Source of the DNA: Bacteroidota bacterium
GTDB taxonomy: Bacteria > Bacteroidota > Bacteroidia > JAKFFM01
Length of the DNA: 64,000 nt
Assembly: GCA_036675075.1 (NCBI GenBank)
Contig: JAKFFM010000038.1
Coordinates: 25,024 to 89,023, forward strand
Reading direction: 5' to 3'
Shown: one piece after another, positions 6,771 to 36,855 of the stretch
Layout: every line of letters starts with the position of its first letter
Position numbering within the stretch: position 1 is the first letter of the stretch
Made by a program: the position numbers and the translations under genes
Notes under the pieces: generated by a model
Seen by the model: only the letters and a program-made list of their open reading frames with translations
Told to the model about the DNA's origin: nothing
Database searches by the model: none

Positions 6771-6775
6771 AAAGC

Positions 6776-7828: not shown

Positions 7829-7830
7829 GA

Positions 7831-8445: not shown

Positions 8446-9959
8446 TTTAAGAAATGATTTATAAATTTTAGAAGGTCTTTTTTATACACTGGGTGTTCAT
8501 TGCCTATGATCTCAACAGCGAGTGCTCCCACACAATTTCCAATGAATGGAATCATTTCCGGATCTGCCTTCGCACAGGATAGGAGAGACGTTACACTCAA
8601 AACTGCATCACCTGCACCGACTGAATCTTTCACTGCTCCTGCAAAAGCAGGTGTCCTGTAATAGTTGCCATCGACATAGTTCAGTGATCCCTGTTGTCCA
8701 AGCGTTACCTGTATGTTCTTGCAGTGAGCGATACCTGAAAGTCTTTCAATAAGATTTTCCAGTGGCCCGAACTTATTTCCAAATGGTAGCCTGATCTCAT
8801 TCTCATCAATTGAGATGTAGTCTGCTCTCGAATATTTCGTGATATAGTTGAACCCGTAATTGTTGCTGTTGGTCTGGGCATTCACACAAAGATAAACGCC
8901 ACAGTTTTCAAGGAACTCGATGATCCCTGGTGTGATCATGCCATGTCCGAAATCTGAAATGATGACAAGATCATATTCCTTGATCCTGGTCTTTAAAGAA
9001 TCAATGATCTCTTTTTCAAGGTCCTTGTCAATGTAGCTGTCGTTCATGAAGGTCACTTCAAACAGCTTGATGTTCAGGTATCGGTCCAGGTACCTTCTTT
9101 TGGTAGGTGTAGGACCATCGTGTCTTACAAAAAACTCACGGTGAATTCCAGGTGAGAGCTTGTCTTCTATGATCTGCTGATGTGAATCTTCTTTTCCAAG
9201 GCAGGTTACCAGGTCAACTTTGCCGGCATATTGTTCAAGATGGTTTGCTATTGCGAGCACACCACCGGCATAGGTTTCACCTTTAAGGTAAACACTTGAG
9301 ATGGTAGGACTTTTCGATGATTTGCCAAGTGGCTTGCAATAATGATATTCATCAACGATCGTATCCCCGATCACAAGCACTTTCAGGTTGTTTAAGTCAT
9401 TGATGCTTTCAATTACCTGCTCTGGTGTGAACCGTGATCTGAACTCGCGAAGGAAGTCCTTCACCCGCTCATCGTGTGGACTCAGATGCGCATTGATCAG
9501 TGATGATGATGAAAATGTAATTTCTTCTGTGAAATGAATTTCTCCACCTACAGATTTCAACGCTTCCTCTTCAAGCAGAATGTTCTTTGTAAGATCTTTT
9601 GACCTGTCTTTATAATCCTGGCCTTTCACATAAACATCCGGCTTCACAAGTTTGATGGTTTCTATGGCAGTATCCCAGTTGTTCAGTGCCACATAATCTA
9701 CAGCCTGCAAAGCAGATATGGACTCAGCTCTCAGGATCTCATTGAATACCGGTCTTCCCGGGCCTTTGTTGACGAACCTGTCAGGTGTCAGCGTGACAAC
9801 AAGAACATCCCCGAGGTTTTTCGCTGCTTCAAAATGCTTGATATGTCCAGGATGCATGAGGTCAAAGCACCCGTGACACTGCACGATCTTCTTCCCCTGC
9901 TTTTTCAGGTTAGTAGTTATTTCTGAAAGCTCCTCTAGACTTACGATCTTCCTGTTCAT
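8442..9959 (-). CDS. bifunctional cytidylyltransferase-like nucleotidyltransferase (N-terminal) and PfkB sugar kinase (C-terminal); domain-swapped HldE-like
   Basis: N-terminal motifs GCFDLMHPGHIKHF, KGPGRP and VYVKGQDY. C-terminal motifs VLVIGDTIVDEY and GAGDAVLS (PfkB signature). Confidence 0.8.
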   Translation of the reverse strand: MNRKIVSLEELSEITTNLKKQGKKIVQCHGCFDLMHPGHIKHFEAAKNLGDVLVVTLTPDRFVNKGPGRPVFNEILRAESISALQAVDYVALNNWDTAIETIKLVKPDVYVKGQDYKDRSKDLTKNILLEEEALKSVGGEIHFTEEITFSSSSLINAHLSPHDERVKDFLREFRSRFTPEQVIESINDLNNLKVLVIGDTIVDEYHYCKPLGKSSKSPTISSVYLKGETYAGGVLAIANHLEQYAGKVDLVTCLGKEDSHQQIIEDKLSPGIHREFFVRHDGPTPTKRRYLDRYLNIKLFEVTFMNDSYIDKDLEKEIIDSLKTRIKEYDLVIISDFGHGMITPGIIEFLENCGVYLCVNAQTNSNNYGFNYITKYSRADYISIDENEIRLPFGNKFGPLENLIERLSGIAHCKNIQVTLGQQGSLNYVDGNYYRTPAFAGAVKDSVGAGDAVLSVTSLLSCAKADPEMIPFIGNCVGALAVEIIGNEHPVYKKDLLKFINHFLK

Positions 9960-9961
9960 AA

Positions 9962-10948
9962 TTATGAAAGATATTTAAACCAGTCCTTTGTCGCTTCGGC
10001 AATGCTTGATGGTTCCCAGAGTGGTGCTTCTCTCCAGTAGTCAATATTGTCAAGCATGATCTTAACTCCTTCCTCAAAGCTTACTTTCGGTTTCCAGTTT
10101 AGTATCTGATTGATCTTCGTGGTATCTGCAAAGGTACAGTCAGGTTCGCCCGGACGTTTTGGAATATGCACTACCTCACCTCCAAGCAATGACACAAGCT
10201 TGTTTACGCTGTAAGTGTTGCCGCTTCCTACGTTCATGATCTCTCCTGAGCAATTTGAGTTTGCCGCAGCTGTTACACAGGCGTCAACGATATCAGTTAC
10301 AAAGGTGAAGTCCCGTGTCTGTTCTCCATCACCAACAACTGTATAAGGTTTGTTGTTGAGCTTTTGCGCAAGGAAAACACCAAACACGGCTCCATAAGTT
10401 CCTGAGGTACGTGCGCGTGGACCATATACATTGAAGAATCTTAGCGATGTGATATTCATCTTATAGATCTGCTCCCAGTACATCGCATACTTCTCACCAA
10501 GAAGCTTGGTCACGGCATATGGATACTGTGGTCTGATCTCCGCTGTTTCAGGTGTTGGATAATTATCCGGAATACCATAGCATGAAGATGAAGCGGCATA
10601 GATCACTCTTTTTACACCATTTGCCCTGCAGGCTTCCAGTACGGAGATCGTTCCGTTAACATTTGAATTATGATACTGCAGTGGCTTCTCAATTGAAGGC
10701 ACAATATCCGCTAAGGCAGCAAGGTGAAACACCCAGTCAACGTTTTCAAACACAGGCTTGATCTTTTCATTGTCTGAAATGTCAGCGTGCAGGAAGCTAA
10801 AGTTGGGATTGTTTTTATGATGCTCTATATTCCGCAATGAACCGCTTGACAGGTTGTCTATAGCGATCACCTTATGTCCGTCATTTAACAGGCGATCCAC
10901 AAGATGGCTTCCAATAAAGCCGCAGCCTCCGGTAACAATCGTTTTCAT
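9962..10948 (-). CDS. extended SDR NAD-dependent sugar-nucleotide epimerase/dehydratase (UXS/RmlB-like)
   Basis: MKTIVTGGCGFIGSHLVDRLL, IDNLSSG and YAVTKLLGE (YxxxK) motifs. Confidence 0.8.
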   Translation of the reverse strand: MKTIVTGGCGFIGSHLVDRLLNDGHKVIAIDNLSSGSLRNIEHHKNNPNFSFLHADISDNEKIKPVFENVDWVFHLAALADIVPSIEKPLQYHNSNVNGTISVLEACRANGVKRVIYAASSSCYGIPDNYPTPETAEIRPQYPYAVTKLLGEKYAMYWEQIYKMNITSLRFFNVYGPRARTSGTYGAVFGVFLAQKLNNKPYTVVGDGEQTRDFTFVTDIVDACVTAAANSNCSGEIMNVGSGNTYSVNKLVSLLGGEVVHIPKRPGEPDCTFADTTKINQILNWKPKVSFEEGVKIMLDNIDYWREAPLWEPSSIAEATKDWFKYLS

Positions 10949-11979
10949 TTTTTCTTTTTCTTAACAAGTTTCTTAAGTATGCCTCCTGAATAATAGTCGG
11001 CATCGTTGATCATTTCGTTGAGCCTTTGTTTCATGGTCACCTTGCGTGATTCGGTCACTGCAGGATCTGCTTTTCTATAGATCCGCGGAATGCCATGAAG
11101 GTCTTTGTTGTCAATGATATGCGGTGTGAATTCCGGTACAAATCCCAATGATCTTACATATTCATCTACATCGATCTTTCCTGCTGGCCGCCATGTTTGC
11201 GCATGATCACGGATATACAGCATCCCGCCAGGCTTGAGTGTTCTGTGAAATTCAGCCAGCATTCTCTTCTGAAGCTTGCTGTTAAGTTCAGGTAGCACCT
11301 GTACGCAGGATACCAGGTTGAAGTAATTATCCGGCAGAAGATCATACCGCCACGTCGGAAGATGCATGATCCCTTTTGAATGATCATCAATTTTAAAGCT
11401 TTGCGGATTGGAAATGTAATCTGTAAAAGGCCGCCCTAATGATGAATAATAGGTATGCTGAAGGCAATATGATTTGGGAACAGCATCCATGCCTACATAA
11501 AGGTTGCCTGCATCTTCTGACCAAAGATTTGCCTGTCTTCCAAAGCCTGCTCCAAAATCAAGCACGCGTTTAATGCGATACCTTTCAGGGACAGGATACA
11601 ACTGGGGAAGCAGAAAATCATGCGCGTTGTTGATCCCTATATTTTTCCTGTATGTTGCAAAGTCGAACGCAAGTCCCAGGTCTGTCAGTGCCTTCCGGTC
11701 TGTTTTTTCGCTTTGGTCGACCAATGGCTCTGTAAGCTTGCTGCCCAGATAATCCGGATAATCAGGCCTGAACCACTTGAACCATTCGATAAGCTCGCTG
11801 ATGTCTGAAAATGATGAAAAATCTTTAGGACCTTCTTCGTAAACAACAGCACTTTTTTTACGCTTCTCCTGGTACTGCCAGGTGATGAGCCATTTTTTCA
11901 GGTACTGCCGGTCTCCCTCCAGCGCACTGTAAAATTGCCCGGTAAGCACTTTGGGTGAAATTAGCTGCTTTGTACTCAC
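10945..11979 (-). CDS. class I SAM-dependent methyltransferase with ~130-aa N-terminal extension
   Basis: VLDFGAGFGRQANLW and LKPGGMLYIRD motifs. The only plausible start is a GTG overlapping the upstream stop (GTGA). Confidence 0.65.
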   Translation of the reverse strand: MSTKQLISPKVLTGQFYSALEGDRQYLKKWLITWQYQEKRKKSAVVYEEGPKDFSSFSDISELIEWFKWFRPDYPDYLGSKLTEPLVDQSEKTDRKALTDLGLAFDFATYRKNIGINNAHDFLLPQLYPVPERYRIKRVLDFGAGFGRQANLWSEDAGNLYVGMDAVPKSYCLQHTYYSSLGRPFTDYISNPQSFKIDDHSKGIMHLPTWRYDLLPDNYFNLVSCVQVLPELNSKLQKRMLAEFHRTLKPGGMLYIRDHAQTWRPAGKIDVDEYVRSLGFVPEFTPHIIDNKDLHGIPRIYRKADPAVTESRKVTMKQRLNEMINDADYYSGGILKKLVKKKKK

Positions 11980-13100
11980 GCCGTAACTTTAACGGGATCC
12001 TTTGTACTGCAGAATTCCCTGATGCATGATGCTACATAGTTTACCTGCTCGTCCGTTAATTCAGGATATACAGGAAGGCTCAGGATCGTTTCAGATTGCT
12101 TTTCAGTAACGGGAAAGTCTCCTTTTTTATAACCTAATCCTGATGCAGCTTCCTGGTAGTGGATTGGCAAGGGGTAATGGATCTTTGTATCGATCCCCTT
12201 CTCACCAAGATAATTTTTTAGTTCGTCACGATGACTGTATTGGATGATGTACGTATGATAAACAGATTTCATTCCATCCGCTTCGATCGGAAGGATCATG
12301 TCAAGTCCGTTTAATGCGTCGCTGTATTTTTTTGCAATCGCTCTTCTTCGTTCGTTCCACTGATCCAGCTTTTTTAGCTTCACATTCAGGATCGCTGCCT
12401 GCATCGTATCGAGCCTTGAATTGTAGCTCCAGAATGCGCATTCATCACGATTTTTCAATCCGTGATTTCGGGCAACAACAAGCTTTTTGTACAGAGCTTC
12501 ATCGTTGGTAGTGATCACGCCGCCATCGCCACAGGCACTCAGGTTCTTCAATGGATGAAGAGAGAATGATCCGGCAATTCCGAATGAACCAACGGGCTTT
12601 CCATGAAGACTGGCACCTACAGCCTGCGCAGCATCTTCAATGACAGGAATGTTGTGCCTGTTCGCGATTGCCATGATCTCTTCCATATCTGCAGGACGAC
12701 CGGTAAGATGAACAGCGATGATTGCCTTCGTTTTTTTCGTGATCGCTTTCTCAAGCCTGGCAGGATCAAGGTTGAAGTTGTCCCGGACATCTGCAAACAC
12801 AGGAGTTGCGCCGATCAGCGCTACAGAGGATGCAGAAGCAAGAAAAGAATTCGGAGCTGTGATCACTTCATCACCGGCACCAATACCCAGTGCACGCATG
12901 GTGAGGAAAAGAGAATCTGTTCCATTGGCAACACCAAGTGCATACGTTGTTCCGGCGATCTTTGCGAAAGATGCTTCGAATTTTGTCAGCTCATCGCCCA
13001 TGATGAATTGTCCGGAGTCGAGCAATGCACCAATGGAGTCAAGGATCTCTGACTTGATATCCTTATGCTGTAAGCCCAGGTTGATATACGGTACTTTCAT
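11976..13100 (-). CDS. DegT/DnrJ/EryC1/StrS-family PLP sugar aminotransferase
   Basis: 374 aa. Motifs GDEVITAPNSF and FSLHPLKNLSACGDGG (Lys region) are typical of the family. Confidence 0.88.
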   Translation of the reverse strand: MKVPYINLGLQHKDIKSEILDSIGALLDSGQFIMGDELTKFEASFAKIAGTTYALGVANGTDSLFLTMRALGIGAGDEVITAPNSFLASASSVALIGATPVFADVRDNFNLDPARLEKAITKKTKAIIAVHLTGRPADMEEIMAIANRHNIPVIEDAAQAVGASLHGKPVGSFGIAGSFSLHPLKNLSACGDGGVITTNDEALYKKLVVARNHGLKNRDECAFWSYNSRLDTMQAAILNVKLKKLDQWNERRRAIAKKYSDALNGLDMILPIEADGMKSVYHTYIIQYSHRDELKNYLGEKGIDTKIHYPLPIHYQEAASGLGYKKGDFPVTEKQSETILSLPVYPELTDEQVNYVASCIREFCSTKDPVKVTA

Positions 13101-27711: not shown

Positions 27712-30700
27712 TCAGAAGAAGAATCCACTGGAAACAGTTACGAAACGGCCTTCTTCAGAGAACCCTACTGATCCTGAAAGAATAAACAGGTTGTAGAAAT
27801 TCACCCAGGCACCCGGACCATATCCTGTATGCCACTTGCTGGATACTTCATAATCTTTCCATACACGGGCATTGTCAACGAATCCAAGCAAGCCCCACTT
27901 TCCGGTGACTACATAGTTCCTGAATTCAAACAGCCTGAACCTCAGATCAACATTCTGGTATGTCATGGACTGTCCGGCGAACCGGTTCCATCTGTAGCCT
28001 CTCAGGTTTGTTGTACCTCCTACAAAATTCGATTCATAGAACGGATGCTCTCCAAAATTGATCCCTCCACCAAGGCGGAATGCCATCGTCAATGGGAATG
28101 TACCTCCACGCGGTGTCAGATAGAAACTTACATCACCGGAAATTGGGCTGTAAACATCATCTGATCTGTCCACAATATTGAGTGCCGATTTCACACTGAC
28201 CTTAACGCCTCTTGTAGGATCAGAATCGCTGTCAAGTACATTCAGTACACCGTCTAAACGTAGCCCATAAATATTCTGAGGGCCGAGGATGGTGGAAGTG
28301 AATTTCTCTGGTCCGTCCACCACAACGTTTGTTTCTCTTGAAAGAATTGTTCTCTGGTACTGAGGTCCTACAGAAATTCTTGTATGTGTGGATGTTTTCT
28401 TAGCCATCCCTATATAAGCATATTGCTGTCCTATCTTCAGTCTGTAATTGTCAATGCCAAGGCTTTTATCCCATTTGGTTTCATTTCCGATCCCGAAATA
28501 ATTAATCTCATTGTTGGGACCGCTTTGCCTTAGATAGATCTGAAGGTCGTAGTTCTTTGCAAGGAAAGAATGGAAATAACCTTTGTAGCTATAGATCCTT
28601 GAATTGGTATTTGTTGCATAATGGAAGTTGAGGTGATGTTCTGAGTTCGCAGGAGGCTTTCCAAAGTTGTATCTCTTCATTAAGATCCCTGCTCCTGTAT
28701 AAAAACCATAATCATTATTGTACTCTGCAAACAAGCGTGGCCTTAACGCACTTCTCTTGAACACCAGTTCTTTATAACTGTCGTACTCAGTTACATTCTT
28801 GTTTGTCGAAAGTCTTGCTCTTACATTTCCTGAAATGACATTTTCTTCGCCTCTGTAGTCAAGGATCTTGGTTGACTTTCGAATTCCTTTCATGTCTGTA
28901 CTGTCAATGTATGTGTCTTTACCTTTTCCACCAATGATCTTCATAACTGGGCCTTTTTGAGCTGGTCCTGTCATTTCGAACACATCATCACCATCTAAGC
29001 CATAGAGTATGACTTTCTTTGTTTCGATTGTTTTAAACACACGGCGATAGACTTCCCTGTCATAAACGCCTTTGGTGCTGTCGTTCTCTCCGAAGATGGT
29101 CACTTCGGTTTCATGGTCATTCTTTCTGTTGACAACAAATTTTTCATTTTTGTTGGAGCCGATAACCTCTACCATTCTTGAAAGGATCCTGTAGTAATCG
29201 AGGGCGGCCTGGTCAAGCTGTTCGCGTCGCATCTTTAGTTTTTCGGTGATCTCTTTTCCTGATAAAGCATAGATCTCAGGAGGAAATTTTTTGATCGCAT
29301 TTTCAATGACCGAATCTGTAAGCTGCTTTTTCAATGTGTCCGCAATCGCAAGCCATTCCTCAAGTGTAGGCTCAGTGATCAGTGTTTTATCAAGGAGGCT
29401 TGCACTTTTGTTCAGTCCTTTCATGTTCTTCAGCTCTCCTGTGAAGTGATTGAAGTTTCTTACAGCAAATGTTCTGAAGAAGTATGGAATGATTCCGTCA
29501 AACTTAACGAACACCTGGTCACGGTCGCGCGGTACTGCTTTATACACCGTGTTTCCATTGTCTTTGAATTCTCCCCATCTCCAGTTGTCATCATGACGAT
29601 CCCAGTCACCAATAAACATATCGAACAGGCGGGCTTTCAGGAAGAACTTCTGATCAATGGTGTTATGATTGTCCTTCATCAGGTTCTTGTACATTGTTTT
29701 AACGCTCACAATGTTCTTGCTGTATCCAAAGCTTTTAAGCTTGCTGAGATCATCATCGGCCCGCTCTTCAAGGATTGCCAGCTTACCACCAACATCATCG
29801 ATGTATTGTCCTAAGTCAGGAGTGTGCGGTACATAGAAAAGTTCAGGGTTGGCATGAAATACACCTACTGCATCAGCCATTGGAGGAATAACAAGCGCTC
29901 CATAAGGATGTGCCGATGACATCTGATCCTGTAAAATATCGCTTGCGAATGTTCGTCTTAACCCGATAGGTATCAGTGATGACGGATCTTTGGAAACTGT
30001 ACGTAAAGTATATTCAATGCTGTCTTTTGAAACAAGTCTGATGGATACCGTTTGTCTGCCGCCTCCTTTGGCAGTAGGAGTGAGCCCACCTTTCTCGCAC
30101 TTCAGATCAAGTAAATGGGTTTTTACAGGAGTTCTCCATTCCTCACGGTAATGTTCTCCAAAGAAGAACTTCTTGATTGGCCCGGCCTTATATTCCTTGC
30201 TTGCTGCGAATGTGATCGTACTGTCGGAGCAATCAAAATCTTTTGGAAGGTTCGTGGTTTCCTGTGACAAGGCATAAAGTGGAGTTCTGAATACGAGCTC
30301 ACCGGTTGTTCCATCTTCTACAGGCTCCCAGAATTCGATCCATGCTTCGCCATTTTCATAATAGTTTACTCGTGCAAATCCGGTATGATCATGCACAAAA
30401 CCTGCGCCCAGTCCTTTCACCGCATACTTGTCTTTGCAGCCTGATCCGCTGACAACATGATGCACGCCATCAACATTTCTGTATTGAATGTTATGCTCGT
30501 GGCCTGCAGCAAAAACAAGATTTTTCTGGTTTTCCATAACAGAAACCATAGCATCTTTCAGCTGCTGATAGGCAGGATGTGAAAGATCTTCCCTTGAAAC
30601 ACCATACTTTCTCATTAAAGGATAGATCGATCCTATCACAGGCAACGGGATATATAAATTCGGACGCACAAGTGTCAGCGGAAAGAAATAATCTTTGATG

Positions 30701-31560
30701 CTGTAATGTCCTCCATGGTTGCCATTCGTGAAAAGCGGGTGATGCTGAACGATCACGATGTTCTTGTTCTTGTTTCGCTTGATCATATCCGCTAACTGTA
30801 CGGTAAAGTCAAAGCGATCGTTGATGTTACATCCATTCTCATTGCCTATAGGCTTTTCATCTTCGTGAGGATAAAGCCACCATTCCGAATCAACAAAGAT
30901 CATTGTAAGATCACTTGTGATGTGTCTCTCCACAGGTCCCGGACATCCATTGCTTGGCAGGAAGGAGTTGTAATTCTTTAAGGATTCTTCAATGTATTTC
31001 TCCTGCCTGTTGACAGCATCGAGTCCGCCCTTCTTTGATTCATTCCAATCGTGATTACCAGGAACGAAGAATACATTGCCTTTATACTGTCTTACGACAT
31101 CAAGCTGCTGGTCAATAATGAGCTCTTTGTCTTTTCTGTCAGGCGCATCTTCTGGTGGCAACCCCCGGTAATAGATGTTGTCTCCAAGGAACACCACGGA
31201 ATTATTATTCAGTACACTGTGACAGGTGTAGGAAGTGTCGTAACAGATCTGCTGCGTTGTAGAGTCAATCCGGCTGTTTGACAGTACAGTATCCACCCTG
31301 GTGTAAATCATGTTGCGAAGAAGATGGAGTGTAGGATTCAGTCTCCTCCCTTTCTTTTCGCCTGCATCACCTATCAGGTAAACAGAATACTTTAATTGAG
31401 AAGTATCCGGAGGAGTCTGTGACTTCCAGTCTTTATAAGCATTGTCGTAATATGGTTTGACAGTACCGCACGACACAAACGCCATGACAGTAACTGCGAT
31501 CGACAGACTAAAAAGTATAGTCGAAGCCGACGATCGTTGCTGGGTTTTTCTTGCCTTCAT
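27712..31560 (-). CDS. outer-membrane lipoprotein fusion: calcineurin-like metallophosphoesterase (N-terminal) and Omp85/BamA-type beta-barrel (C-terminal)
   Basis: Lipobox AFVSCG. Phosphoesterase motifs IGDAGE, FLGDNIY, GNHDW, VQHHPL and AGHEHN. The C-terminal ~330 aa is beta-barrel-like and ends in an aromatic tail (SSGFFF). Confidence 0.75.
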   Translation of the reverse strand: MKARKTQQRSSASTILFSLSIAVTVMAFVSCGTVKPYYDNAYKDWKSQTPPDTSQLKYSVYLIGDAGEKKGRRLNPTLHLLRNMIYTRVDTVLSNSRIDSTTQQICYDTSYTCHSVLNNNSVVFLGDNIYYRGLPPEDAPDRKDKELIIDQQLDVVRQYKGNVFFVPGNHDWNESKKGGLDAVNRQEKYIEESLKNYNSFLPSNGCPGPVERHITSDLTMIFVDSEWWLYPHEDEKPIGNENGCNINDRFDFTVQLADMIKRNKNKNIVIVQHHPLFTNGNHGGHYSIKDYFFPLTLVRPNLYIPLPVIGSIYPLMRKYGVSREDLSHPAYQQLKDAMVSVMENQKNLVFAAGHEHNIQYRNVDGVHHVVSGSGCKDKYAVKGLGAGFVHDHTGFARVNYYENGEAWIEFWEPVEDGTTGELVFRTPLYALSQETTNLPKDFDCSDSTITFAASKEYKAGPIKKFFFGEHYREEWRTPVKTHLLDLKCEKGGLTPTAKGGGRQTVSIRLVSKDSIEYTLRTVSKDPSSLIPIGLRRTFASDILQDQMSSAHPYGALVIPPMADAVGVFHANPELFYVPHTPDLGQYIDDVGGKLAILEERADDDLSKLKSFGYSKNIVSVKTMYKNLMKDNHNTIDQKFFLKARLFDMFIGDWDRHDDNWRWGEFKDNGNTVYKAVPRDRDQVFVKFDGIIPYFFRTFAVRNFNHFTGELKNMKGLNKSASLLDKTLITEPTLEEWLAIADTLKKQLTDSVIENAIKKFPPEIYALSGKEITEKLKMRREQLDQAALDYYRILSRMVEVIGSNKNEKFVVNRKNDHETEVTIFGENDSTKGVYDREVYRRVFKTIETKKVILYGLDGDDVFEMTGPAQKGPVMKIIGGKGKDTYIDSTDMKGIRKSTKILDYRGEENVISGNVRARLSTNKNVTEYDSYKELVFKRSALRPRLFAEYNNDYGFYTGAGILMKRYNFGKPPANSEHHLNFHYATNTNSRIYSYKGYFHSFLAKNYDLQIYLRQSGPNNEINYFGIGNETKWDKSLGIDNYRLKIGQQYAYIGMAKKTSTHTRISVGPQYQRTILSRETNVVVDGPEKFTSTILGPQNIYGLRLDGVLNVLDSDSDPTRGVKVSVKSALNIVDRSDDVYSPISGDVSFYLTPRGGTFPLTMAFRLGGGINFGEHPFYESNFVGGTTNLRGYRWNRFAGQSMTYQNVDLRFRLFEFRNYVVTGKWGLLGFVDNARVWKDYEVSSKWHTGYGPGAWVNFYNLFILSGSVGFSEEGRFVTVSSGFFF

Positions 31561-32383
31561 TTGAAATATAAAGCTTTGCCTCTGGGGTGAATGTTATTCC
31601 TTCTGGTTGCTGAAAAAGATCTTTATGCAGTGTGACCATGTTCAGCACTTTGCCATTCATGTCGCTTACAAGCAGCAAGCCTGATCGCGAAGAGATCACG
31701 TAGAGCTCCTGGGTTTTTGGATGGATCGCGATTCCTGATGGCGAAAGAAGCTGATCCATTTTATCTTCATTCTTCAATGCCGTAATGGATTTTGGAAGCT
31801 CTCCTGAATGATCTGAAATAAACTTGTTGATATCATCCTTCGAGAAGGTGATCACAGGTTCTGGCAGTAAGGCTTCACTTTTCAGATCAAATGCATAAAT
31901 GAACTTCTCCGAGCCTTTCCCTTTTTTTGCTCCTCCGCTTTTGCAGGCGATAAGTAGCCGGTTATTCATCTTGTCATAACAGAGCCCTTCTGTATCAACA
32001 TTCGCTGCCAGTCCGGTGTTGAATTCTTTGCGATTGCCTTCTTCACCCTTCATATCAACCTGGAAAATGTTTCCATCGCTTTTCAGGACATACACGAAAT
32101 CTCCGGCGACAACAAGGTCTTCATAGTCGCCTTTAGAGCCGAACCTGTATGTGTTTGTGATCTGCTTCTTGTTGAGATCATAAAAAAAGATCACGGCATC
32201 TTCATCCATCACACAGGAGATCAGGTTGTCTTTTACATAAGAAATACCTGACACTTCAAGAAGCTCCGGTGGAAGATCTGTAATCTCTGAAGGCTTTGAA
32301 AAATCATACTTGTCATGGATGGTAATGTCACTGCAGCACAGCAGGGCAAACAGTGGGATCAGTAATATCATATAATGTTTCAT
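31508..32383 (-). CDS. SdiA-regulated/YjiK-like beta-propeller protein
   Basis: Signal peptide. Motifs LEVSGISY, DTEGLCYD, PSGIAIHP and QPEGITFTPEAKLYISNEG. The 3' end overlaps the next gene's start by 53 nt. Confidence 0.6.
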   Translation of the reverse strand: MKHYMILLIPLFALLCCSDITIHDKYDFSKPSEITDLPPELLEVSGISYVKDNLISCVMDEDAVIFFYDLNKKQITNTYRFGSKGDYEDLVVAGDFVYVLKSDGNIFQVDMKGEEGNRKEFNTGLAANVDTEGLCYDKMNNRLLIACKSGGAKKGKGSEKFIYAFDLKSEALLPEPVITFSKDDINKFISDHSGELPKSITALKNEDKMDQLLSPSGIAIHPKTQELYVISSRSGLLLVSDMNGKVLNMVTLHKDLFQQPEGITFTPEAKLYISNEGKKNPATIVGFDYTF

Positions 32384-32452: not shown

Positions 32453-33640
32453 ATGAGTGTATATAAGGAGATCAGGAAAGAGGCTTACACCTATGTGCTT
32501 GATTTATTTACAAAAGACGTTCAGCCCGGACTTCTTTATCACAGCTTTAGTCATACGGAAGACACTGTAAAAGAGTGTAAGAAGATCCTTGAATCTGAGC
32601 CTGGAGTTGATGTGGATCATGACCTGATACTCATCGCCGCATTGTTCCATGATACGGGATACCTGGAAAAGTACGAAGGTCATGAGGATGCATCCTGTCA
32701 GATTGCGGAAAAATTCCTGCACGAAAAAGGAATGAGTGAGGAAAATATTGCAATAGTCAGAGACCTGATCGTGTCCACCAGATCAGGAGCTGTTCCATGC
32801 AACAAGGCTCAACAGGTGCTTCACGATGCTGATTATGCTAACATCACACGAAAAGATTTTTTTGAAAAGGGGAATCTGTTAAGAAGAGAGTGGGAGCTTA
32901 AGCTTAACAGGACATACACAGATCTTGAATGGGAAAGGCTGCAGCTTGAATTCCTTGAGACTCATCGCTTTTATACTGTCTTTGGCCAGAAGAAGCTTGA
33001 GCCTGGAAAAGCTTCAAACATCATCCGGGTCAAGGAGATGATGTCTAAGATTGAAAGCAAAGAAGAACGAAAACATGCATCTAAACGTCCGTCCAGGGGC
33101 ATTGAAACAATGTACCGGTCTATCTACAGAAATCATATCGGACTAAGCGCCATCGCAGATAGAAAAGCGAACATGATGATCTCGATCAACACGATCATCA
33201 TTTCTGTTATCATGTCTTTCATTGGTTCCGGATACACCTTTGCGCGTGCGAGGTACATGGAAGATATGAGGTTCACTGTGCCGCTCATTCTGTTATTATT
33301 GACATCTCTTGTTTCTGTCATCTTCGCCATCCTCAGTGCCCGTCCTAACCTCAGGGAAAAAAAGGATGATTCAAAAGAAAGTGTCCTGTTCTTCGGAACC
33401 TTCTCTAAAATGGAAGTGGAACATTTCATACATGGAATGAATGAGTTGATGTCTGTACCAGGAAATCTTTACGAAAGCATGACCGTGGATATCTATAACC
33501 TTGGTGCTGTTCTTCAAAGAAAATATGGGTTGCTGAGGATCAGCTATGGTACGTTTTTAATCGGGCTCGTAGTGACAGTGGTTTGTTTTCTGATCATACT
33601 GGGAGTCTCTTCATATAGTACCACAGCTCCGGCTGTCTGA
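32453..33640 (+). CDS. HD-domain phosphohydrolase fused to a C-terminal PycTM/DUF5706-like transmembrane domain
   Basis: HD motifs HSFSHTEDT, AALFHDTGY and HDADY. C-terminal RGIETMYRSIYRNHIGLSAIADRKANMMISINTIIISVIMSF plus two further TM helices. The ATG at 32453 is preferred because the 32375 start would overlap the divergent gene's start codon. Confidence 0.7.
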   Translation: MSVYKEIRKEAYTYVLDLFTKDVQPGLLYHSFSHTEDTVKECKKILESEPGVDVDHDLILIAALFHDTGYLEKYEGHEDASCQIAEKFLHEKGMSEENIAIVRDLIVSTRSGAVPCNKAQQVLHDADYANITRKDFFEKGNLLRREWELKLNRTYTDLEWERLQLEFLETHRFYTVFGQKKLEPGKASNIIRVKEMMSKIESKEERKHASKRPSRGIETMYRSIYRNHIGLSAIADRKANMMISINTIIISVIMSFIGSGYTFARARYMEDMRFTVPLILLLLTSLVSVIFAILSARPNLREKKDDSKESVLFFGTFSKMEVEHFIHGMNELMSVPGNLYESMTVDIYNLGAVLQRKYGLLRISYGTFLIGLVVTVVCFLIILGVSSYSTTAPAV

Positions 33641-34225
33641 ACTTTTAACAGGTACGTACCTGTAGGGAATCATCCCAATGTGCTCATAATAATCGCGGCC
33701 TTTGATCATCTGGTTTCCAAAGAAACTTGTGGTGATCTCTTTTTCTGAATACTGTGAAAGAAAGTTTTCAGAGCAAAGGATGTATTCATCTTCCTTCACC
33801 GAGTTCTTGAGAAGCTTATGCGCTTTGATCACATCTTCACCGATCAGCTTCGTTCTAGTATCAATCTTTTCAGGAAAGGTTAAACCTGAATGCAGAATTA
33901 CTTTTAAGCCGAGCTTGTTTCCTTTAAGGTATCGTGATGATTCTTCAGGAAATTCTTTTTCTATCTGATCAAGTGCATCACGAAAGCTTTTGAAGAACTG
34001 CATGCATTGATCGTAGATCTTGCTGAGTTCAGGAAAAGGTTCGAAGGCATAGAACAATACGGCGTCTCCTTCAACTTCTCCGATATGATACCTGCTTTGG
34101 TTACTATGGATGATGGCCTTAAGCACTGATGGAACCACTTTTCCGCTGAATGCGATATCCGTGTCACTGATAAACCTTGTGAATCCGGTTAGATCAGGGA
34201 TGCACAGCATTGAATTGGCAATCAT
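33611..34225 (-). CDS. minimal class III nucleotidyl-cyclase-like protein (DUF2652-like)
   Basis: Starts MIANSMLCIPDLTGFTRF (compare cyclase F.DI.GFT). Also EGDAVLFYAF (compare GDA..a.F), LKVILHSG (compare R.GIHtG) and LIGEDVIKAHKL (compare G..VN.AaRL). The longer ORF-track version (to 34459) adds a Pro/Arg-rich extension that runs antisense into the Nudix gene. Confidence 0.65.
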   Translation of the reverse strand: MIANSMLCIPDLTGFTRFISDTDIAFSGKVVPSVLKAIIHSNQSRYHIGEVEGDAVLFYAFEPFPELSKIYDQCMQFFKSFRDALDQIEKEFPEESSRYLKGNKLGLKVILHSGLTFPEKIDTRTKLIGEDVIKAHKLLKNSVKEDEYILCSENFLSQYSEKEITTSFFGNQMIKGRDYYEHIGMIPYRYVPVKSSDSRSCGTI

Positions 34226-34295
34226 ATCTGTAATGTAAATACGTAGTGATGCTTGCAATCTCCTTGCCTTAATTTTCATAGATTTAAAGCTGCAG

Positions 34296-34736
34296 ATGAA
34301 CCTTGTGCGATTTAACATACGTGCGTATGGATTGTATCTTAAAGATGATGCGGTCCTTGTGACAGATGAATTCCGGATGGGCATGCGTATGACCAAGTTC
34401 CCCGGTGGTGGCCTTGAGTTTGGTGAAGGCCTTGCCGATTGCGTCATTCGTGAATGCATGGAAGAGTTTGGACAGTCATTCAGAATACTCTCTCATTTTT
34501 ATACAACGGATTTCTTTCAGGCCAGCGCGTTTGACAACTCCCAGCTGATCAGTGTGTATTACCTTGTTCAGCCAGAGAATGAGCTATTGTGCAAACTCAC
34601 CACCAAGCCATTTCAATTCGATGTTGAATCTGAAGGTGCTCAATGCTTCCGGTTTATCTCTTTAGATGAGCTTGATGAAGAGCATCTGACATTTCCTGTT
34701 GACAAGCATGTCGTACGCTTACTGAAAAAATTATGA
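34296..34736 (+). CDS. Nudix hydrolase
   Basis: Complete Nudix box GGGLEFGEGLADCVIRECMEEFG. Confidence 0.88.
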   Translation: MNLVRFNIRAYGLYLKDDAVLVTDEFRMGMRMTKFPGGGLEFGEGLADCVIRECMEEFGQSFRILSHFYTTDFFQASAFDNSQLISVYYLVQPENELLCKLTTKPFQFDVESEGAQCFRFISLDELDEEHLTFPVDKHVVRLLKKL

Positions 34737-35395
34737 AGTACAGATTACTCCTTGGAATACTATTTTTATTTGTCACCGCATGTGCTCCATCCAGGCTTGT
34801 AACGCCACTCAAAAAAGACGAGCTAGCGTTAGGCGCAGGCTTTGGTGGTCCGCTGATAAAGCTCGGTAATGCAGTGATCCCAATTCCTTACGCGACGATC
34901 CAGGGCGGTTATGGTGTTACATCTGACATTACAGTCACCGGTGGTGCACACCTGACTGCTGCAGCTTTTGGTGTCGCGATGTTTGAAACGGGCGCATTGT
35001 TTAATGTCTGGAATAAGGATTCTTTAAAGCAGGGTATCACGGCTCATGTGAACCTCAATACGGCTTTCGGTCATCAGGCATTCAGGATCTGGCCGCAGAC
35101 TGATCTTAACTACTATTACAGGCTTAATAAAAAATCAGCATTGTACAGTGGAGTCTCCGCATGGTATGAGCTGAATGGAAACACTCTCCATGGTGAACCT
35201 CAGTCAACATTTATTATTCCTTCATGGCAGGCTGGGTACACTTACTCACCTTCATCCTGGACCTGGCAGCTTGAAGCAAAAGTGATCGCGCCACATGAAG
35301 ACAACAGGTATGTTGTAGCTGATTACATTTCACCATTAGGATCAAAGGGAGCTTTCGGCGTTTATGTAACAGTATCAAAACGATTCGGAAAATGA
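34733..35395 (+). CDS. hypothetical lipoprotein, beta-rich (possible small outer-membrane barrel)
   Basis: Lipobox LFVTAC and alternating hydrophobic beta-strand pattern. ATGA overlaps on both sides. Confidence 0.55.
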   Translation: MKYRLLLGILFLFVTACAPSRLVTPLKKDELALGAGFGGPLIKLGNAVIPIPYATIQGGYGVTSDITVTGGAHLTAAAFGVAMFETGALFNVWNKDSLKQGITAHVNLNTAFGHQAFRIWPQTDLNYYYRLNKKSALYSGVSAWYELNGNTLHGEPQSTFIIPSWQAGYTYSPSSWTWQLEAKVIAPHEDNRYVVADYISPLGSKGAFGVYVTVSKRFGK

Positions 35396-36279
35396 AAAGG
35401 ATGACAATGATTTTCCTGGCCTGTCTGCTTGCAGGATGTGCGAAGCTCGACAGCAACATGTTTAACAACGACAATTCGATCAATGAATACCTGTATGATG
35501 ACTATACAGGTGAGAACGATTTTATTCTGGATGAAACATATCACATTGATGATTCACTCATCCATGAATTTACACTCAGCTCTAAAACTCCTTCTGAAAG
35601 GGAGCCTGTAACGATCTATGCGACTTATGTGGGTGACCTTTCAACCATTGACCAGGACACGGTGATCCTGTATTGTCATGGAAATAAGTGGCACATGGAT
35701 TTTTATTGGCAACGTACGAAGCTCCTCGCGAATGTTGGAGGGAGAAGCAGGTTTGGTGTGCTTACCTTTGATTACCGTGGTTATGGAAGATCTGAAGGTG
35801 TGCCGACTGAAGATGGTATGTATGCTGATGCACGTGCAGCGCTGGACTGGTTGAGAGGTAAAGGTGTAGAGAGCAGGAAGCTGATCATGTATGGGTTCAG
35901 CCTGGGCTCAGCTCCGGCAGTTCAGCTTACTGCGCATCCGGGTTTACTTCGTCCTTCCAGGCTTATTCTTGAAGCTCCGTTCGCATCTACAAAAGAGATG
36001 GTGAGAGATGCATCTCTGCTGAATATGCCGGCATCTTTCTTCACGACCGTTGAAGTGGACAATGCCGGAAAGATTAAGAATGTAAAGTGTCCATTCCTTT
36101 GGATACATGGTGTTGAAGATGATTTCCTGTCAATTAAAACACATGGTGAAGTGGTATTCAGGAATTATCGTGGAACAGGAAAGGCTGTCAGGGTAGTAGG
36201 AGCGAATCATGGATCAATTCAGACAACGATGGGATTTGATGCCTACCGGAATGTTCTGCTTGATTTCATTATGCGATAA
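35392..36279 (+). CDS. alpha/beta-hydrolase lipoprotein (serine hydrolase)
   Basis: Lipobox LLAGCA, nucleophile elbow GFSLGS, and HG..D and H residues near the C-terminus. Confidence 0.75.
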   Translation: MKRMTMIFLACLLAGCAKLDSNMFNNDNSINEYLYDDYTGENDFILDETYHIDDSLIHEFTLSSKTPSEREPVTIYATYVGDLSTIDQDTVILYCHGNKWHMDFYWQRTKLLANVGGRSRFGVLTFDYRGYGRSEGVPTEDGMYADARAALDWLRGKGVESRKLIMYGFSLGSAPAVQLTAHPGLLRPSRLILEAPFASTKEMVRDASLLNMPASFFTTVEVDNAGKIKNVKCPFLWIHGVEDDFLSIKTHGEVVFRNYRGTGKAVRVVGANHGSIQTTMGFDAYRNVLLDFIMR

Positions 36280-36288
36280 ACTGGAATG

Positions 36289-36855
36289 CTACGCAAGTCT
36301 TTTCATGACGAATGAATCGATCTTCGAGCATAATTCCGTTGGATGCACGGTTCTCCATTTCACATCATTCAGCCTTCCATTCATGAGGATGTAGTTGTCA
36401 ATGTTGCTGCGTTCAAATTCTTTCAGGACATGCTCCCTGAAGTTGAGGAACGCGATCCAGCCATCTTCCACTTCTTCGAACCATTCTTCGTAATAACAAT
36501 CGTCGGAATAATGGAAATTGAGCACATTTTCACCGATCAGTAAAAACTTTGTAATTCCCTGTTCCATCATGGGGTCAACAATATCCCGCTTGAGAAACAT
36601 GATGTCGTTGTTCAGACAGTCATTCCATTCTCCGAAAAGCTCAATCACAGCATATCCTGATTCATAATCTGCAAAGAGGACTTTGATGAACAGGGTAGGA
36701 GATCCGATATCATCCCACTGTGGATGAATCAGGAAATTATAGATCTGGTTGGTGTATTCGAATTCGCTGTACTCACGGTTGTAAAAAGGAGAATTCTGAT
36801 CTTCAGATGCGATATATAAATGGCGCCAGTTGTAGTAAGGTTCGATGTCCTGCAT
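36289..36855 (-). CDS. hypothetical cytoplasmic protein
   Basis: Clean 188-aa ORF with an ATG start and no recognisable motif. Confidence 0.5.
   Translation of the reverse strand: MQDIEPYYNWRHLYIASEDQNSPFYNREYSEFEYTNQIYNFLIHPQWDDIGSPTLFIKVLFADYESGYAVIELFGEWNDCLNNDIMFLKRDIVDPMMEQGITKFLLIGENVLNFHYSDDCYYEEWFEEVEDGWIAFLNFREHVLKEFERSNIDNYILMNGRLNDVKWRTVHPTELCSKIDSFVMKRLA

What the first reader, a model, noticed from the sequence alone, without database searches (positions are those of the whole stretch)
32453..34736. Candidate cyclic-nucleotide module: DUF2652-like minimal cyclase, HD-PycTM membrane protein and Nudix hydrolase
The 204-aa minus-strand ORF carries the hallmark class III cyclase-fold motifs. 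These are a metal Asp in PDLTGFT, a second Asp in EGDAVLF, and HSG and GEDV..A..L elements. It has no sensor domain. It converges on a protein that joins a complete HD phosphohydrolase domain to a C-terminal 3-TM domain. As far as I recall, that domain (RGIETMYRS..ADRKANMMISIN..) corresponds to Pfam PycTM/DUF5706, the membrane effector domain of Pycsar antiphage systems. A canonical Nudix hydrolase is transcribed divergently 70 bp from the cyclase-like gene. In Pycsar, a cyclase makes cCMP or cUMP that activates a TM or TIR effector. HD domains, as in the membrane-bound PgpH, and Nudix enzymes degrade signalling nucleotides. This trio could therefore be a non-canonical signalling or defence unit with a synthase, a membrane effector or phosphodiesterase, and a hydrolase. 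Two caveats apply. The genes are convergent or divergent rather than operonic, and I believe HD-DUF5706 proteins are widespread as solitary genes.
Basis: partly seen in the sequence, partly recalled or inferred. Interest (0 to 1): 0.72.

Follow-up and report, generated by a model that had tools for sequence, protein, structure and literature searches.

The report
Conserved Bacteroidota cyclase / HD-membrane protein module
A small cyclase-like enzyme and a membrane protein that looks like an antiphage "Pycsar effector" belong to a four-gene cluster kept together across the phylum Bacteroidota, so this is more likely a housekeeping signalling unit at the cell envelope than a phage-defence system, and the neighbouring Nudix gene is not part of it.

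Summary
The window encodes an HD+PycTM (3-TM) protein at 32453..33640 (+), a DUF2652 protein at 33611..34225 (-) and a Nudix hydrolase at 34296..34736 (+). All three pass Pfam thresholds. DUF2652 models confidently as a class III nucleotide-cyclase fold with both metal-binding Asp residues invariant. The usual catalytic Asn is replaced by Ile.

- The cyclase/HD-PycTM pairing is real. It is adjacent in 58 of 80 HD-PycTM loci from several Bacteroidota orders. Most pairs are convergent with overlapping 3' ends; a few are co-directional.
- In six loci from at least four lineages a canonical membrane-anchored class III cyclase sits with cluster genes where DUF2652 usually does.
- Nudix is not conserved with the pair (0 of 160 loci).
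- Two partners were missed: an SdiA-regulated-like beta-propeller lipoprotein and a 1282-aa metallophosphoesterase-Omp85 outer-membrane protein. One MAG has all four genes as a tight operon.
- Conserved gene order, slow evolution, uniform architecture (1677 representative clusters) and housekeeping flanks argue against a Pycsar-type defence island.

Best reading: a housekeeping, envelope-linked nucleotide second-messenger module whose receptor/hydrolase shares ancestry with PycTM effectors. No biochemistry has been done.

The parts
33611..34225 (-). DUF2652 protein (204 aa; gene callers use the start at 34210, giving 199 aa). Soluble, sensor-less, class III nucleotide-cyclase-fold enzyme.
   Evidence: Pfam DUF2652 E 4e-28. 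AF2 pLDDT 90.9. Top Foldseek PDB hits are CyaC, Cya2 and sGC, E down to 5.6e-8. D6, D49, K103, H107, G124, K135 and N136 are invariant in 117 sequences; the position equivalent to the class III Asn is Ile.
32453..33640 (+). HD-PycTM protein (395 aa): cytosolic HD phosphohydrolase domain fused to a C-terminal 3-TM module of the PycTM (pJV1-SpdB3) family.
   Evidence: Pfam PycTM 5e-27 and HD 1.2e-5. PADLOC PycTM and 2TM effector models hit. Family alignment A2 has 56% mean column identity. AF2 pLDDT 83.6.
32546..32833 (+). HD domain core (aa 32-127), inside a conserved helical N-terminal domain of about 200 aa.
   Evidence: H30, H66-D67, H124-D125-x-D127 are invariant in 31 homologues. Nearest structures are 2pq7, 2pjq, YpgQ 5dqw and YedJ 3gw7; cNMP PDE2A/5A match only weakly.
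33119..33601 (+). PycTM-like module (aa 223-383): amphipathic pre-TM helix, TM1, TM2, a conserved cytosolic helical insert of about 60 aa, and TM3.
   Evidence: PADLOC PycTM PDLC02364 E 3.5e-18 over aa 223-383. Invariant motifs: RGxET..R..H..IAD.KA, S.LFFG.F and Y..M..D.Y.LG.VL..KY.
33611..33640 (.). 30-nt tail-to-tail overlap of the two convergent coding sequences.
   Evidence: Read directly from the sequence. 51 of 66 unique convergent pairs in other genomes overlap, median about 18.5 nt. Both encoded tails are low-confidence and variable.
31508..32383 (-). SdiA-regulated/YjiK-like beta-propeller lipoprotein (291 aa). It is divergent from HD-PycTM across 69 nt and overlaps the start of the next gene by 53 nt.
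   Evidence: Pfam SdiA-regulated E 5e-12. Present beside HD-PycTM in 55/80 loci. Lies inside the four-gene operon in L241.
27712..31560 (-). 1282-aa outer-membrane protein: lipoprotein signal, calcineurin-like metallophosphoesterase, uncharacterised conserved middle domain, Omp85 beta-barrel.
   Evidence: Pfam Metallophos 6e-7 and Omp85 1.8e-8. Adjacent to HD-PycTM in 72/80 loci. The form found next to HD-PycTM in Fulvivirga lacks only the Metallophos part.
34296..34736 (+). Nudix hydrolase (146 aa). Examined neighbour, NOT part of the conserved module. First gene of a separate Nudix-lipoprotein-alpha/beta-hydrolase operon.
   Evidence: Pfam NUDIX 1.5e-10. Absent from all 160 comparison loci and present only in close relatives L001 and L166-168.

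Best explanation
The DUF2652 gene and the HD-PycTM gene are two parts of an old four-gene module with conserved gene order across Bacteroidota and relatives. The four parts are: (1) a class III cyclase-fold enzyme, either DUF2652 or, in some lineages, a canonical membrane-anchored adenylate/guanylate cyclase; (2) an inner-membrane HD-3TM protein; (3) a beta-propeller lipoprotein; and (4) a metallophosphoesterase-Omp85 outer-membrane protein.

Proposed mechanism:
- The cytosolic cyclase-fold enzyme makes a nucleotide signal from an NTP. This is most likely a 3',5'-cNMP. Bacteroidetes DUF2652 proteins were previously predicted to be guanylate-cyclase-like.
- The HD-3TM protein is the dedicated membrane receptor and/or terminator of that signal. 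Its PycTM-type 3-TM module is homologous to the cNMP-activated pore-forming effectors of Pycsar and Pucsar. It would sense the nucleotide and change membrane or channel state.
- The fused, catalytically intact HD domain would hydrolyse the signal, or a related phosphoester.
- The output is coupled to the envelope proteins encoded alongside.

The module is housekeeping or physiological, not an abortive-infection defence system. Nudix is unrelated.

Shown here: the folds, motif conservation, family membership of the domains, and the gene linkage in several independent arrangements. Inferred only: the product of the enzyme, ligand sensing by the 3-TM module, the HD substrate, and the link to envelope function.
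For: Fold and motifs:
- The DUF2652 AF2 model has pLDDT 90.9. Its best PDB matches are all class III cyclases: CyaC 1wc4 at E 5.6e-8, Cya2 2w01, sGC, and PycC 7r65 at rank 45.
- hhalign against the catalytic domains of canonical cyclases found in the same cluster gives E 2e-4 and a register that matches the motifs.
- Both metal-binding Asp residues, plus K103, H107 and G124, are invariant in 117 sequences.
- A 2016 analysis reached the same fold assignment. It predicted a guanylate-cyclase-like pocket and noted an HD neighbour in Hymenobacter (PMC4886424).

Receptor:
- The PycTM hit is far above the Pfam threshold, and PADLOC PycTM/2TM models also hit.
- PycTM/PucTM are cNMP-dependent membrane effectors that form hexameric channels (preprint 10.64898/2026.08.12.744502; PMC11224242).
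- The HD ligands are invariant.

Linkage:
- 58/80 HD-PycTM loci from Sphingobacteriales, Cytophagales, Chitinophagales and Flavobacteriales have DUF2652 adjacent. 53 of them have the window's exact four-gene arrangement.
- L151 and L152 are co-directional: DUF2652 > HD-PycTM > Omp85.
- Canonical class III cyclases sit with cluster genes in Fulvitalea (co-directional with HD-PycTM), Persicobacter (convergent), the Flavobacteriales MAG L241 (tight operon cyclase > lipoprotein > Metallophos-Omp85 > HD-PycTM), Ignavibacteriales L186 (about 2 kb from HD-PycTM) and two Bacteroidales MAGs (next to the lipoprotein/Omp85 genes; no HD-PycTM on those short contigs).

Housekeeping character:
- Flanks are housekeeping genes with no mobile or defence genes.
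- 1677 representative clusters share a uniform HD+3TM architecture of about 400 aa.
- Mean column identity across orders is 56%.
Against: - There is no biochemical evidence for any step.
- The genes are convergent in the window, so they are not co-transcribed.
- The position of the class III transition-state Asn is Ile in 113/117 DUF2652 proteins, and the Arg position is K or R. The enzyme may therefore be a poor cyclase or catalyse something else.
- 13 HD-PycTM loci of the 80 (Fulvivirga, several Cyclobacteriaceae and Roseivirgaceae) have the Omp85 partner but no cyclase within 8 kb. 24/80 DUF2652 loci have no partner within 6 kb. The coupling is therefore not obligatory in cis.
- The HD domain resembles YpgQ/YedJ-type hydrolases more than known cNMP phosphodiesterases.
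- The overlapping 3' ends could themselves slow separation of the pair.
- The locus sets are the 80 best hits per scan and are phylogenetically non-independent.
- No fusion protein joins the partners among the top 150 representatives.
Confidence: 0.5

Rival explanations
1. The four-gene module is real, but it is not a cyclic-nucleotide signalling system. DUF2652 would be a diverged palm-domain protein with another activity (a different nucleotidyl transfer) or a regulatory pseudo-enzyme. The HD-3TM protein would then work with the metallophosphoesterase-Omp85 protein and the beta-propeller lipoprotein in envelope phosphoester metabolism, such as lipid, polyphosphate or nucleotide turnover or export.
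For: - HD-PycTM is linked more tightly to the Omp85 protein (72/80 loci) than to any cyclase (58/80). 13 loci of the 80 have HD > Omp85 as an apparent two-gene operon with no cyclase within 8 kb.
- The class III catalytic Asn is missing.
- The HD fold is closest to the nucleotide pyrophosphohydrolase YpgQ and to uncharacterised hydrolases.
- Three of the four proteins are predicted phosphoesterases or phosphoesterase-like.
Against: - DUF2652 is replaced in the same cluster by bona fide PF00211 cyclases that keep the Asn and Arg. This suggests cyclase chemistry is what the module needs.
- Both metal-binding Asp residues and the phosphate-binding Lys are invariant. That is hard to explain for a pseudo-enzyme.
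- The 3-TM module belongs to a family whose characterised members respond to cNMPs.
Confidence: 0.25
2. One reading: a non-canonical Pycsar-like antiphage unit. A minimal cyclase makes a cNMP on infection, which activates the PycTM membrane effector to kill or arrest the cell, with HD and/or Nudix as signal degraders.
For: - The PycTM domain is a true family member and also matches CBASS 2TM effector models.
- NCBI names these proteins 'Pycsar system effector family protein'.
- The partner has a cyclase fold.
- A cGMP-based Pucsar branch with TM effectors exists.
Against: - The cyclase gives no PADLOC hit of any kind, and PycC is only a distant structural match.
- The cluster is conserved in gene order across at least four orders at 40-48% identity and has housekeeping flanks. 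Defence systems are typically patchy and sit in variable islands.
- The sequences are highly conserved with uniform architecture. Immune cyclases and their effectors evolve fast.
- The constant partners are envelope proteins.
- Nudix is not conserved with the pair.
Confidence: 0.1
3. The genes are neighbours only through inherited gene order. An ancestral Bacteroidota arrangement would be preserved by chance and by the overlapping 3' ends, with no functional relationship.
For: - Most adjacent cases share one arrangement that could be inherited vertically (53/80).
- 51/66 convergent pairs overlap, which makes separation costly.
- In Flavobacteriaceae the cluster is loosened or broken.
Against: - At least five different arrangements keep a cyclase next to HD-PycTM or its partners. 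Two of them are co-directional operons.
- Non-orthologous canonical cyclases occupy the same position.
- Genes upstream of DUF2652 vary between genera while the four-gene block persists.
Confidence: 0.1

Closest known systems
Pycsar (PycC cyclase + PycTM effector) and its cGMP branch Pucsar (PucC + PucTM)
   Same: A class III-fold nucleotide cyclase is encoded next to a protein carrying the PycTM / pJV1-SpdB3 3-TM module (Pfam PF18967, PADLOC PycTM). The signal-then-membrane-effector logic could apply here.
   Different: The cyclase is DUF2652, not of the PycC/PucC clade. The effector carries an N-terminal HD hydrolase domain. In the window the genes are convergent with overlapping ends. The pair is conserved in gene order, slowly evolving, and embedded in a four-gene envelope cluster among housekeeping genes. 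No antiphage phenotype is known.
DUF2652 family as analysed by Ramakrishnan et al. 2016 (PMC4886424)
   Same: The same family and the same conclusion: class III cyclase-like fold, conserved metal-binding Asp residues, and a Glu-Lys/Arg pair read as guanylate-cyclase-like in Bacteroidetes. One HD-domain neighbour was already listed (Hymenobacter HSW_3800/HSW_3799).
   Different: That study predates Pycsar. It did not recognise the PycTM module, the phylum-wide conservation, the 3' overlap, the Omp85/lipoprotein partners, or the substitution by canonical cyclases.
Membrane-anchored HD phosphodiesterases of second messengers, e.g. PgpH (7TMR-HD, c-di-AMP) and HD-GYP proteins (from my own knowledge)
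   Same: An HD domain is fused to a multi-pass membrane module, and a role in degrading a signalling nucleotide is plausible.
   Different: The membrane module here is C-terminal, has 3 TM helices and is of the PycTM family. There is no GYP motif. The HD fold is closest to YpgQ/YedJ/2pq7. The substrate is unknown.
CBASS type I systems with 2TM effectors
   Same: PADLOC CBASS '2TM effector' models match the same 160-aa module.
   Different: There is no CD-NTase nearby. The partner enzyme is a mononucleotide-cyclase fold.

Membership tests
Pycsar antiphage system | Effector protein carrying a PycTM (or CNBD-TIR) domain | tested here: met
   Pfam PF18967 at 94.8 bits against a cut-off of 27.2. 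PADLOC PycTM models at E 3.5e-18 to 3e-14.
Pycsar antiphage system | Adjacent, co-transcribed cyclase of the PycC (Pycsar/Pucsar) clade | tested here: not met
   The DUF2652 protein has no PADLOC hit at E <= 0.01 and no PF00211 hit. BcPycC 7r65 is only Foldseek rank 45 with TMq 0.49. The genes are convergent.
Pycsar antiphage system | Sporadic distribution, variable defence-island context and fast evolution | tested here: not met
   The same four-gene block occurs in 53/80 loci across orders. Flanks are housekeeping genes. Mean column identity is 56%. 1677 representative clusters share a uniform architecture.
Pycsar antiphage system | cCMP/cUMP (or cGMP) synthesis on infection, and phage resistance | not testable with these tools
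   Requires enzymology and phage challenge.
Class III nucleotidyl cyclase (catalytic domain) | [quoted passage not shown] | tested here: met
   AF2 pLDDT 90.9 with secondary-structure order E-H-H-E-E-H-E. Every listed Foldseek PDB hit (top 50) is a class III cyclase, 113 hits in all have E <= 1e-3, and TM is 0.58-0.65.
Class III nucleotidyl cyclase (catalytic domain) | Two metal-binding Asp residues (end of beta1; beta2-beta3 hairpin) | tested here: met
   D6 in 116/116 and D49 in 117/117 sequences. Consistent with PMC4886424.
Class III nucleotidyl cyclase (catalytic domain) | Transition-state Asn and Arg in the G..VN.A.R helix | tested here: not met
   hhalign register: the Asn position is Ile128 (113/117) and the Arg position is K or R132. 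An invariant K135-N136 follows, but its role is unknown.
Class III nucleotidyl cyclase (catalytic domain) | Head-to-tail dimer forming the active site; cyclase activity | not tested
Activity needs experiment.
HD-domain metal-dependent phosphohydrolase | H...HD...D metal-ligand motif intact | tested here: met
   H30, H66-D67, D125 and D127 are invariant in 31 homologues. They align to the motif of 2pq7. The HD fold is confirmed.
Cyclic-nucleotide phosphodiesterase (HD-type) | Specific similarity to characterised cNMP or cyclic-dinucleotide PDEs | tested here: inconclusive
   Only sub-threshold matches to PDE5/PDE10 (E 0.06-0.3) and to PDE2A/5A by fold (E 0.07-0.2). The best matches are uncharacterised HD hydrolases and YpgQ.
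Nudix hydrolase as a member of the module | Conserved co-location with the cyclase/HD-PycTM pair | tested here: not met
   Nudix domain confirmed. The gene is absent from 80 DUF2652 loci and 80 HD-PycTM loci.

The most novel reading that the evidence does not exclude
Bacteroidota (and Ignavibacteriota) would carry a housekeeping trans-envelope signalling device. A cytosolic cyclase-fold enzyme makes a cNMP that gates a PycTM-type oligomeric inner-membrane channel carrying its own HD 'off-switch'. That channel would control or supply an outer-membrane metallophosphoesterase-Omp85 machine and its lipoprotein. This would be the physiological relative from which Pycsar, Pucsar and CBASS TM effectors were recruited. 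It would also give DUF2652 its first function.
Probability: 0.2. Interest if true: 0.85.

Novelty: new variant of a known kind. Interest (0 to 1): 0.62.

Why it matters
- Thousands of Bacteroidota proteins are currently labelled 'Pycsar system effector family protein'. If they are in fact part of a conserved housekeeping cluster, that label misleads defence-system surveys.
- The cluster offers a physiological counterpart, and possibly the evolutionary source, of the PycTM/2TM effectors whose ligand sensing and gating remain structurally unresolved.
- It gives DUF2652, a ten-year-old 'predicted cyclase', a specific and testable partner. It also ties cyclic-nucleotide signalling, barely studied in Bacteroidota, to the cell envelope.
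- The four-gene operon in L241 and the interchangeability of DUF2652 with canonical cyclases make the hypothesis directly testable in tractable species such as Pedobacter and Flavobacterium relatives.

Tried and rejected
- **Apparent fusion protein.** P0050 (140 aa, DUF2652 + PycTM) looked like a Rosetta-stone fusion. It sits on a 619-nt contig at 1.5x coverage. I rejected it as a probable assembly chimera.
- **PDB sequence searches for DUF2652.** Single-sequence and profile searches found no cyclase. Only structure comparison and hhalign reach them.
- **PDB sequence search for HD-PycTM.** The single sequence found nothing useful. The profile gave only weak HD hits. The 3-TM part has no PDB fold match; the PucTM structure in the preprint was evidently not in the library.
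- **First genome scan with the single DUF2652 protein** found nothing. An alignment was needed.
- **jackhmmer with the Fulvitalea cyclase** against all ORFs of the 160 loci found no canonical cyclase in the 'cyclase-less' HD-PycTM loci.
- **Rfam over the whole window** gave no riboswitch or other RNA. The sigma-70 promoter/terminator scan was at background level.
- **Profile search of 1.84 billion representatives for fusions** showed only the uniform HD+3TM architecture in the top 150.
- **Middle domain of the Omp85 protein.** Pfam at E <= 10 and PDB searches with sequence and profile found nothing.
- **Literature searches** for DUF5706, for Omp85 with metallophosphoesterase, for YjiK, and for cGMP in Bacteroidota gave nothing relevant.
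Full report
**1. What is in the window**

ORF listing and sequence reading show five relevant genes:
- a 395-aa gene at 32453..33640 (+);
- a convergent 204-aa gene at 33611..34225 (-), which public gene calls start five codons later, giving 199 aa;
- a 146-aa gene at 34296..34736 (+);
- on the other side, a 291-aa lipoprotein gene at 31508..32383 (-);
- a 1282-aa gene at 27712..31560 (-).

The two convergent genes overlap by 30 nt at their 3' ends.

Pfam gives PycTM (E 5e-27) plus HD (E 1.2e-5) for the first gene, DUF2652 (E 4e-28) for the second, NUDIX (E 1.5e-10) for the third and SdiA-regulated (E 5e-12) for the lipoprotein. The 1282-aa protein has Metallophos and Omp85 domains.

PADLOC PycTM models and CBASS 2TM effector models cover aa 223-383 of the HD protein. 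The DUF2652 protein hits no defence model.

**2. The cyclase-like protein**

An AF2 model built on 31 homologues is confident (pLDDT 90.9, pTM 0.88). Every listed Foldseek match in the PDB (the top 50) is a class III nucleotide cyclase, and 113 matches in all have E <= 1e-3:
- CyaC 1wc4, E 5.6e-8;
- guanylyl cyclase Cya2 2w01;
- soluble and receptor guanylate cyclases;
- the Pycsar uridylate cyclase 7r65, only at rank 45.

Sequence and profile searches of the PDB do not reach cyclases. A profile-profile comparison with the catalytic domains of canonical cyclases found in the same cluster (section 4) gives E 2e-4. It aligns KVILHSG with the class III [KR]xG[IL]HxG strand, and IGEDVIKAHKLLKN with the G..VN.A.R helix.

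In 117 unique DUF2652 sequences both metal-binding Asp residues, K103, H107, G124, K135 and N136 are invariant. The position of the class III transition-state Asn is Ile in 113 of 117, and the Arg position is Lys or Arg.

A 2016 paper had already assigned DUF2652 to the class III fold. It predicted a guanylate-cyclase-like pocket for the Bacteroidetes members and listed one HD-domain neighbour in Hymenobacter (PMC4886424). The fold claim is therefore confirmed but not new. The missing Asn is a genuine caveat about the chemistry.

**3. The HD-PycTM protein**

This is a large and very uniform family.
- A word-indexed search found 2109 clusters at 90% identity.
- A full profile search of 1.84 billion representatives found 1677 clusters at E <= 1e-30. 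The top 150 are all HD+3TM proteins of about 385-430 aa.
- NCBI names them 'Pycsar system effector family protein'.

Across orders the alignment has 56% mean column identity. The HD ligands are invariant (H30, H66-D67, H124-D125-x-D127). So are motifs in the pre-TM helix and in the cytosolic insert between TM2 and TM3.

In the AF2 model (pLDDT 83.6) the HD domain is closest to uncharacterised HD hydrolases (2pq7, 2pjq), to the nucleotide pyrophosphohydrolase YpgQ and to YedJ. It resembles eukaryotic cNMP phosphodiesterases only weakly. The membrane part has no PDB match.

A 2026 preprint identifies PycTM as the pJV1-SpdB3 3-TM family. It shows that a cGMP-producing 'Pucsar' branch uses such effectors and that PucTM forms a hexameric channel.

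**4. Are the genes linked?**

I fetched 80 DUF2652-centred loci and 80 HD-PycTM-centred loci from GTDB species representatives. I annotated them with HMMs, tblastn and phmmer.

Around HD-PycTM:
- 58/80 loci have DUF2652 immediately adjacent.
- 53/80 have exactly the window's order: Omp85MP <, lipoprotein <, HD-PycTM >, DUF2652 <. These come from Sphingobacteriales, Cytophagales (Nafulsella, Cesiribacter, Imperialibacter, Roseivirgaceae), Chitinophagales (Flavihumibacter) and Flavobacteriales MAGs, at only 38-48% protein identity to the window.
- 72/80 have the Omp85 protein adjacent.

Genes upstream of DUF2652 differ between genera while the block persists.

Of 66 unique convergent pairs, 51 overlap at their 3' ends.

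Other arrangements also occur:
- Fulvivirga sp. M361 and a Bacteroidota MAG have co-directional DUF2652 > HD-PycTM > Omp85MP.
- 13 loci of the 80 (Fulvivirga, several Cyclobacteriaceae and Roseivirgaceae) have HD-PycTM followed by a shorter Omp85 protein that lacks only the Metallophos domain. The gap is 15 nt in L103, the one locus read in detail. No cyclase lies within 8 kb.

The most telling result came from a tblastn search of plasmids and chromids and a follow-up scan.
- In Fulvitalea axinellae the DUF2652 slot is occupied by a membrane-anchored canonical adenylate/guanylate cyclase (PF00211), co-directional with HD-PycTM and next to the lipoprotein and Omp85MP.
- In Persicobacter a homologue of that cyclase converges on HD-PycTM.
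- Among 80 relatives of that cyclase, four more sit in or near the cluster.
- One of these, the uncultured Flavobacteriales MAG L241, has a tight operon: cyclase (5977-7044) > lipoprotein (7037-7831) > Metallophos-Omp85 (7828-11514) > HD-PycTM (11549-12799). The domains were confirmed by Pfam.
- An Ignavibacteriales locus (cyclase about 2 kb from HD-PycTM) and two Bacteroidales MAGs (cyclase next to the lipoprotein/Omp85 genes; no HD-PycTM on those short contigs) are the others.

Two cyclase families of the same fold but different sequence families occupy the same cluster in different orientations. This is hard to explain without a functional requirement for a cyclase-type enzyme.

**5. What is not linked**

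The Nudix gene is absent from all 160 comparison loci. It accompanies the pair only in very close relatives: L001 (78-79% identity for the pair) and the contigs carrying the window's own HD-PycTM sequence. In the window it overlaps the next gene by 4 nt and so heads a different operon.

In Flavobacteriaceae the cluster is loosened.
- DUF2652 often sits beside the Omp85 protein, a divergent SdiA-like lipoprotein and a DUF2254 membrane protein, amid stress genes.
- HD-PycTM lies a few kb away or out of range.
- 24/80 DUF2652 loci have no partner within 6 kb.

**6. Defence or housekeeping?**

The window comes from an uncultured Bacteroidota bacterium. The best matches of its E1 dehydrogenase are Flavobacteriales MAGs at 68-70%, and a T9SS cargo gene lies nearby.

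Flanking genes are housekeeping: MurQ-like SIS protein, 2-oxoacid dehydrogenase E1, radical SAM, M23-LysM peptidase, PspC, UbiA, SpoU and ABC-F. No mobile or defence genes were seen.

Four things are the opposite of what characterises Pycsar and Pucsar, whose cyclases evolve faster than their physiological outgroups:
- conserved gene order across orders;
- uniform architecture;
- slow divergence;
- constant envelope partners.

I therefore regard the defence reading as unlikely (about 0.1).

**7. Most likely mechanism**

Best-supported reading (confidence about 0.5): a housekeeping four-component module.
- The cyclase-fold enzyme makes a nucleotide signal, probably a cNMP.
- The HD-3TM protein is its inner-membrane receptor and/or hydrolase.
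- The output is tied to the beta-propeller lipoprotein and the metallophosphoesterase-Omp85 outer-membrane protein.

Shown here: folds, motifs, family membership and gene linkage. Inferred: the product, sensing by the 3-TM module (by homology with PycTM/PucTM), the HD substrate and the envelope output.

The main rival (about 0.25) keeps the module but denies cNMP signalling. It rests on the missing Asn, the YpgQ-like HD fold and the cyclase-less HD > Omp85 operons. Pure inherited gene order (about 0.1) is disfavoured by the multiple arrangements and by the substitution with canonical cyclases.

**8. Novelty**

Already known:
- the cyclase fold of DUF2652;
- the PycTM identity of the C-terminal module, which is implicit in database names.

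I found no description of:
- the phylum-wide four-gene cluster;
- the interchangeability of DUF2652 with canonical cyclases;
- the characteristic 3' overlap;
- the implication that these 'Pycsar effector family' proteins are physiological relatives of defence effectors rather than defence proteins.

I class it as a new variant of a known kind and give it moderately high interest.

**Limits**
- Each locus set is the 80 best hits of a pattern-seeded scan and is phylogenetically non-independent.
- No genome-wide co-occurrence test was possible.
- No multimer or ligand modelling was possible.
- There is no experimental evidence for any step.

Noticed in passing
window 27712..31560 (-), aa ~445-1000 of the 1282-aa protein: The region between the Metallophos domain and the Omp85 barrel is a conserved domain of about 550 aa with no Pfam or PDB sequence match. 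It has near-invariant motifs: GGLxPxxxGGGxQTxSLRL, RLFDxLIGDWDRHxDQWRWA and PIPRDRDQxF. To my eye the DWDRH..Q / DRD pair recalls a kinase-like catalytic loop. That is from memory only and untested.
   Followed up: partly
window 33611..33640; L002-L161: The convergent DUF2652 and HD-PycTM coding sequences overlap at their 3' ends in 51 of 66 unique pairs (typically 17-26 nt; 30 nt here). The transcripts must therefore be antisense to each other at their ends. Both encoded tails are variable and low-confidence.
   Followed up: partly
L021, L022, L029, L032, L035, L048 and others (Flavobacteriaceae loci): In 18 of 80 DUF2652 loci a DUF2254 membrane protein (Pfam E 4e-82) lies nearby, usually immediately upstream of DUF2652 and co-directional with it. 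The region also holds Dps, hemerythrin, MscS, DUF2383 and YtxH-like stress genes. DUF2254 may be an alternative membrane partner.
   Followed up: partly
L100, L103, L106, L124, L129, L140 and others: A shorter (~887 aa) Omp85 protein lacking the Metallophos domain follows HD-PycTM (15-nt gap in L103). No cyclase lies within 8 kb. This looks like a reduced two-gene version of the module.
   Followed up: partly
L162 (ENA contig NODE_240733, 619 nt, coverage 1.5): A 140-aa predicted protein joins the C-terminal half of DUF2652 to the C-terminal end of PycTM on one strand. It is most likely an assembly chimera of the two convergent genes, not a natural fusion.
   Followed up: yes
window 34296..36279 (+): Nudix, a 220-aa lipoprotein with no family hit, and an alpha/beta hydrolase (Hydrolase_4) overlap by 4 nt each, forming an apparent operon. 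The closest relative, L001, keeps only the Nudix gene.
   Followed up: partly
window 36289..36855 (-): A 188-aa acidic protein with no Pfam or NCBIfam hit is 89% identical in L001. That is more conserved than its neighbours, which are 70-79% identical.
   Followed up: no
P0051, P0052: These distant DUF2652 homologues (~300 aa, 26-27% identity) carry an N-terminal hydrophobic segment, so membrane-anchored DUF2652 proteins may exist in other lineages.
   Followed up: no
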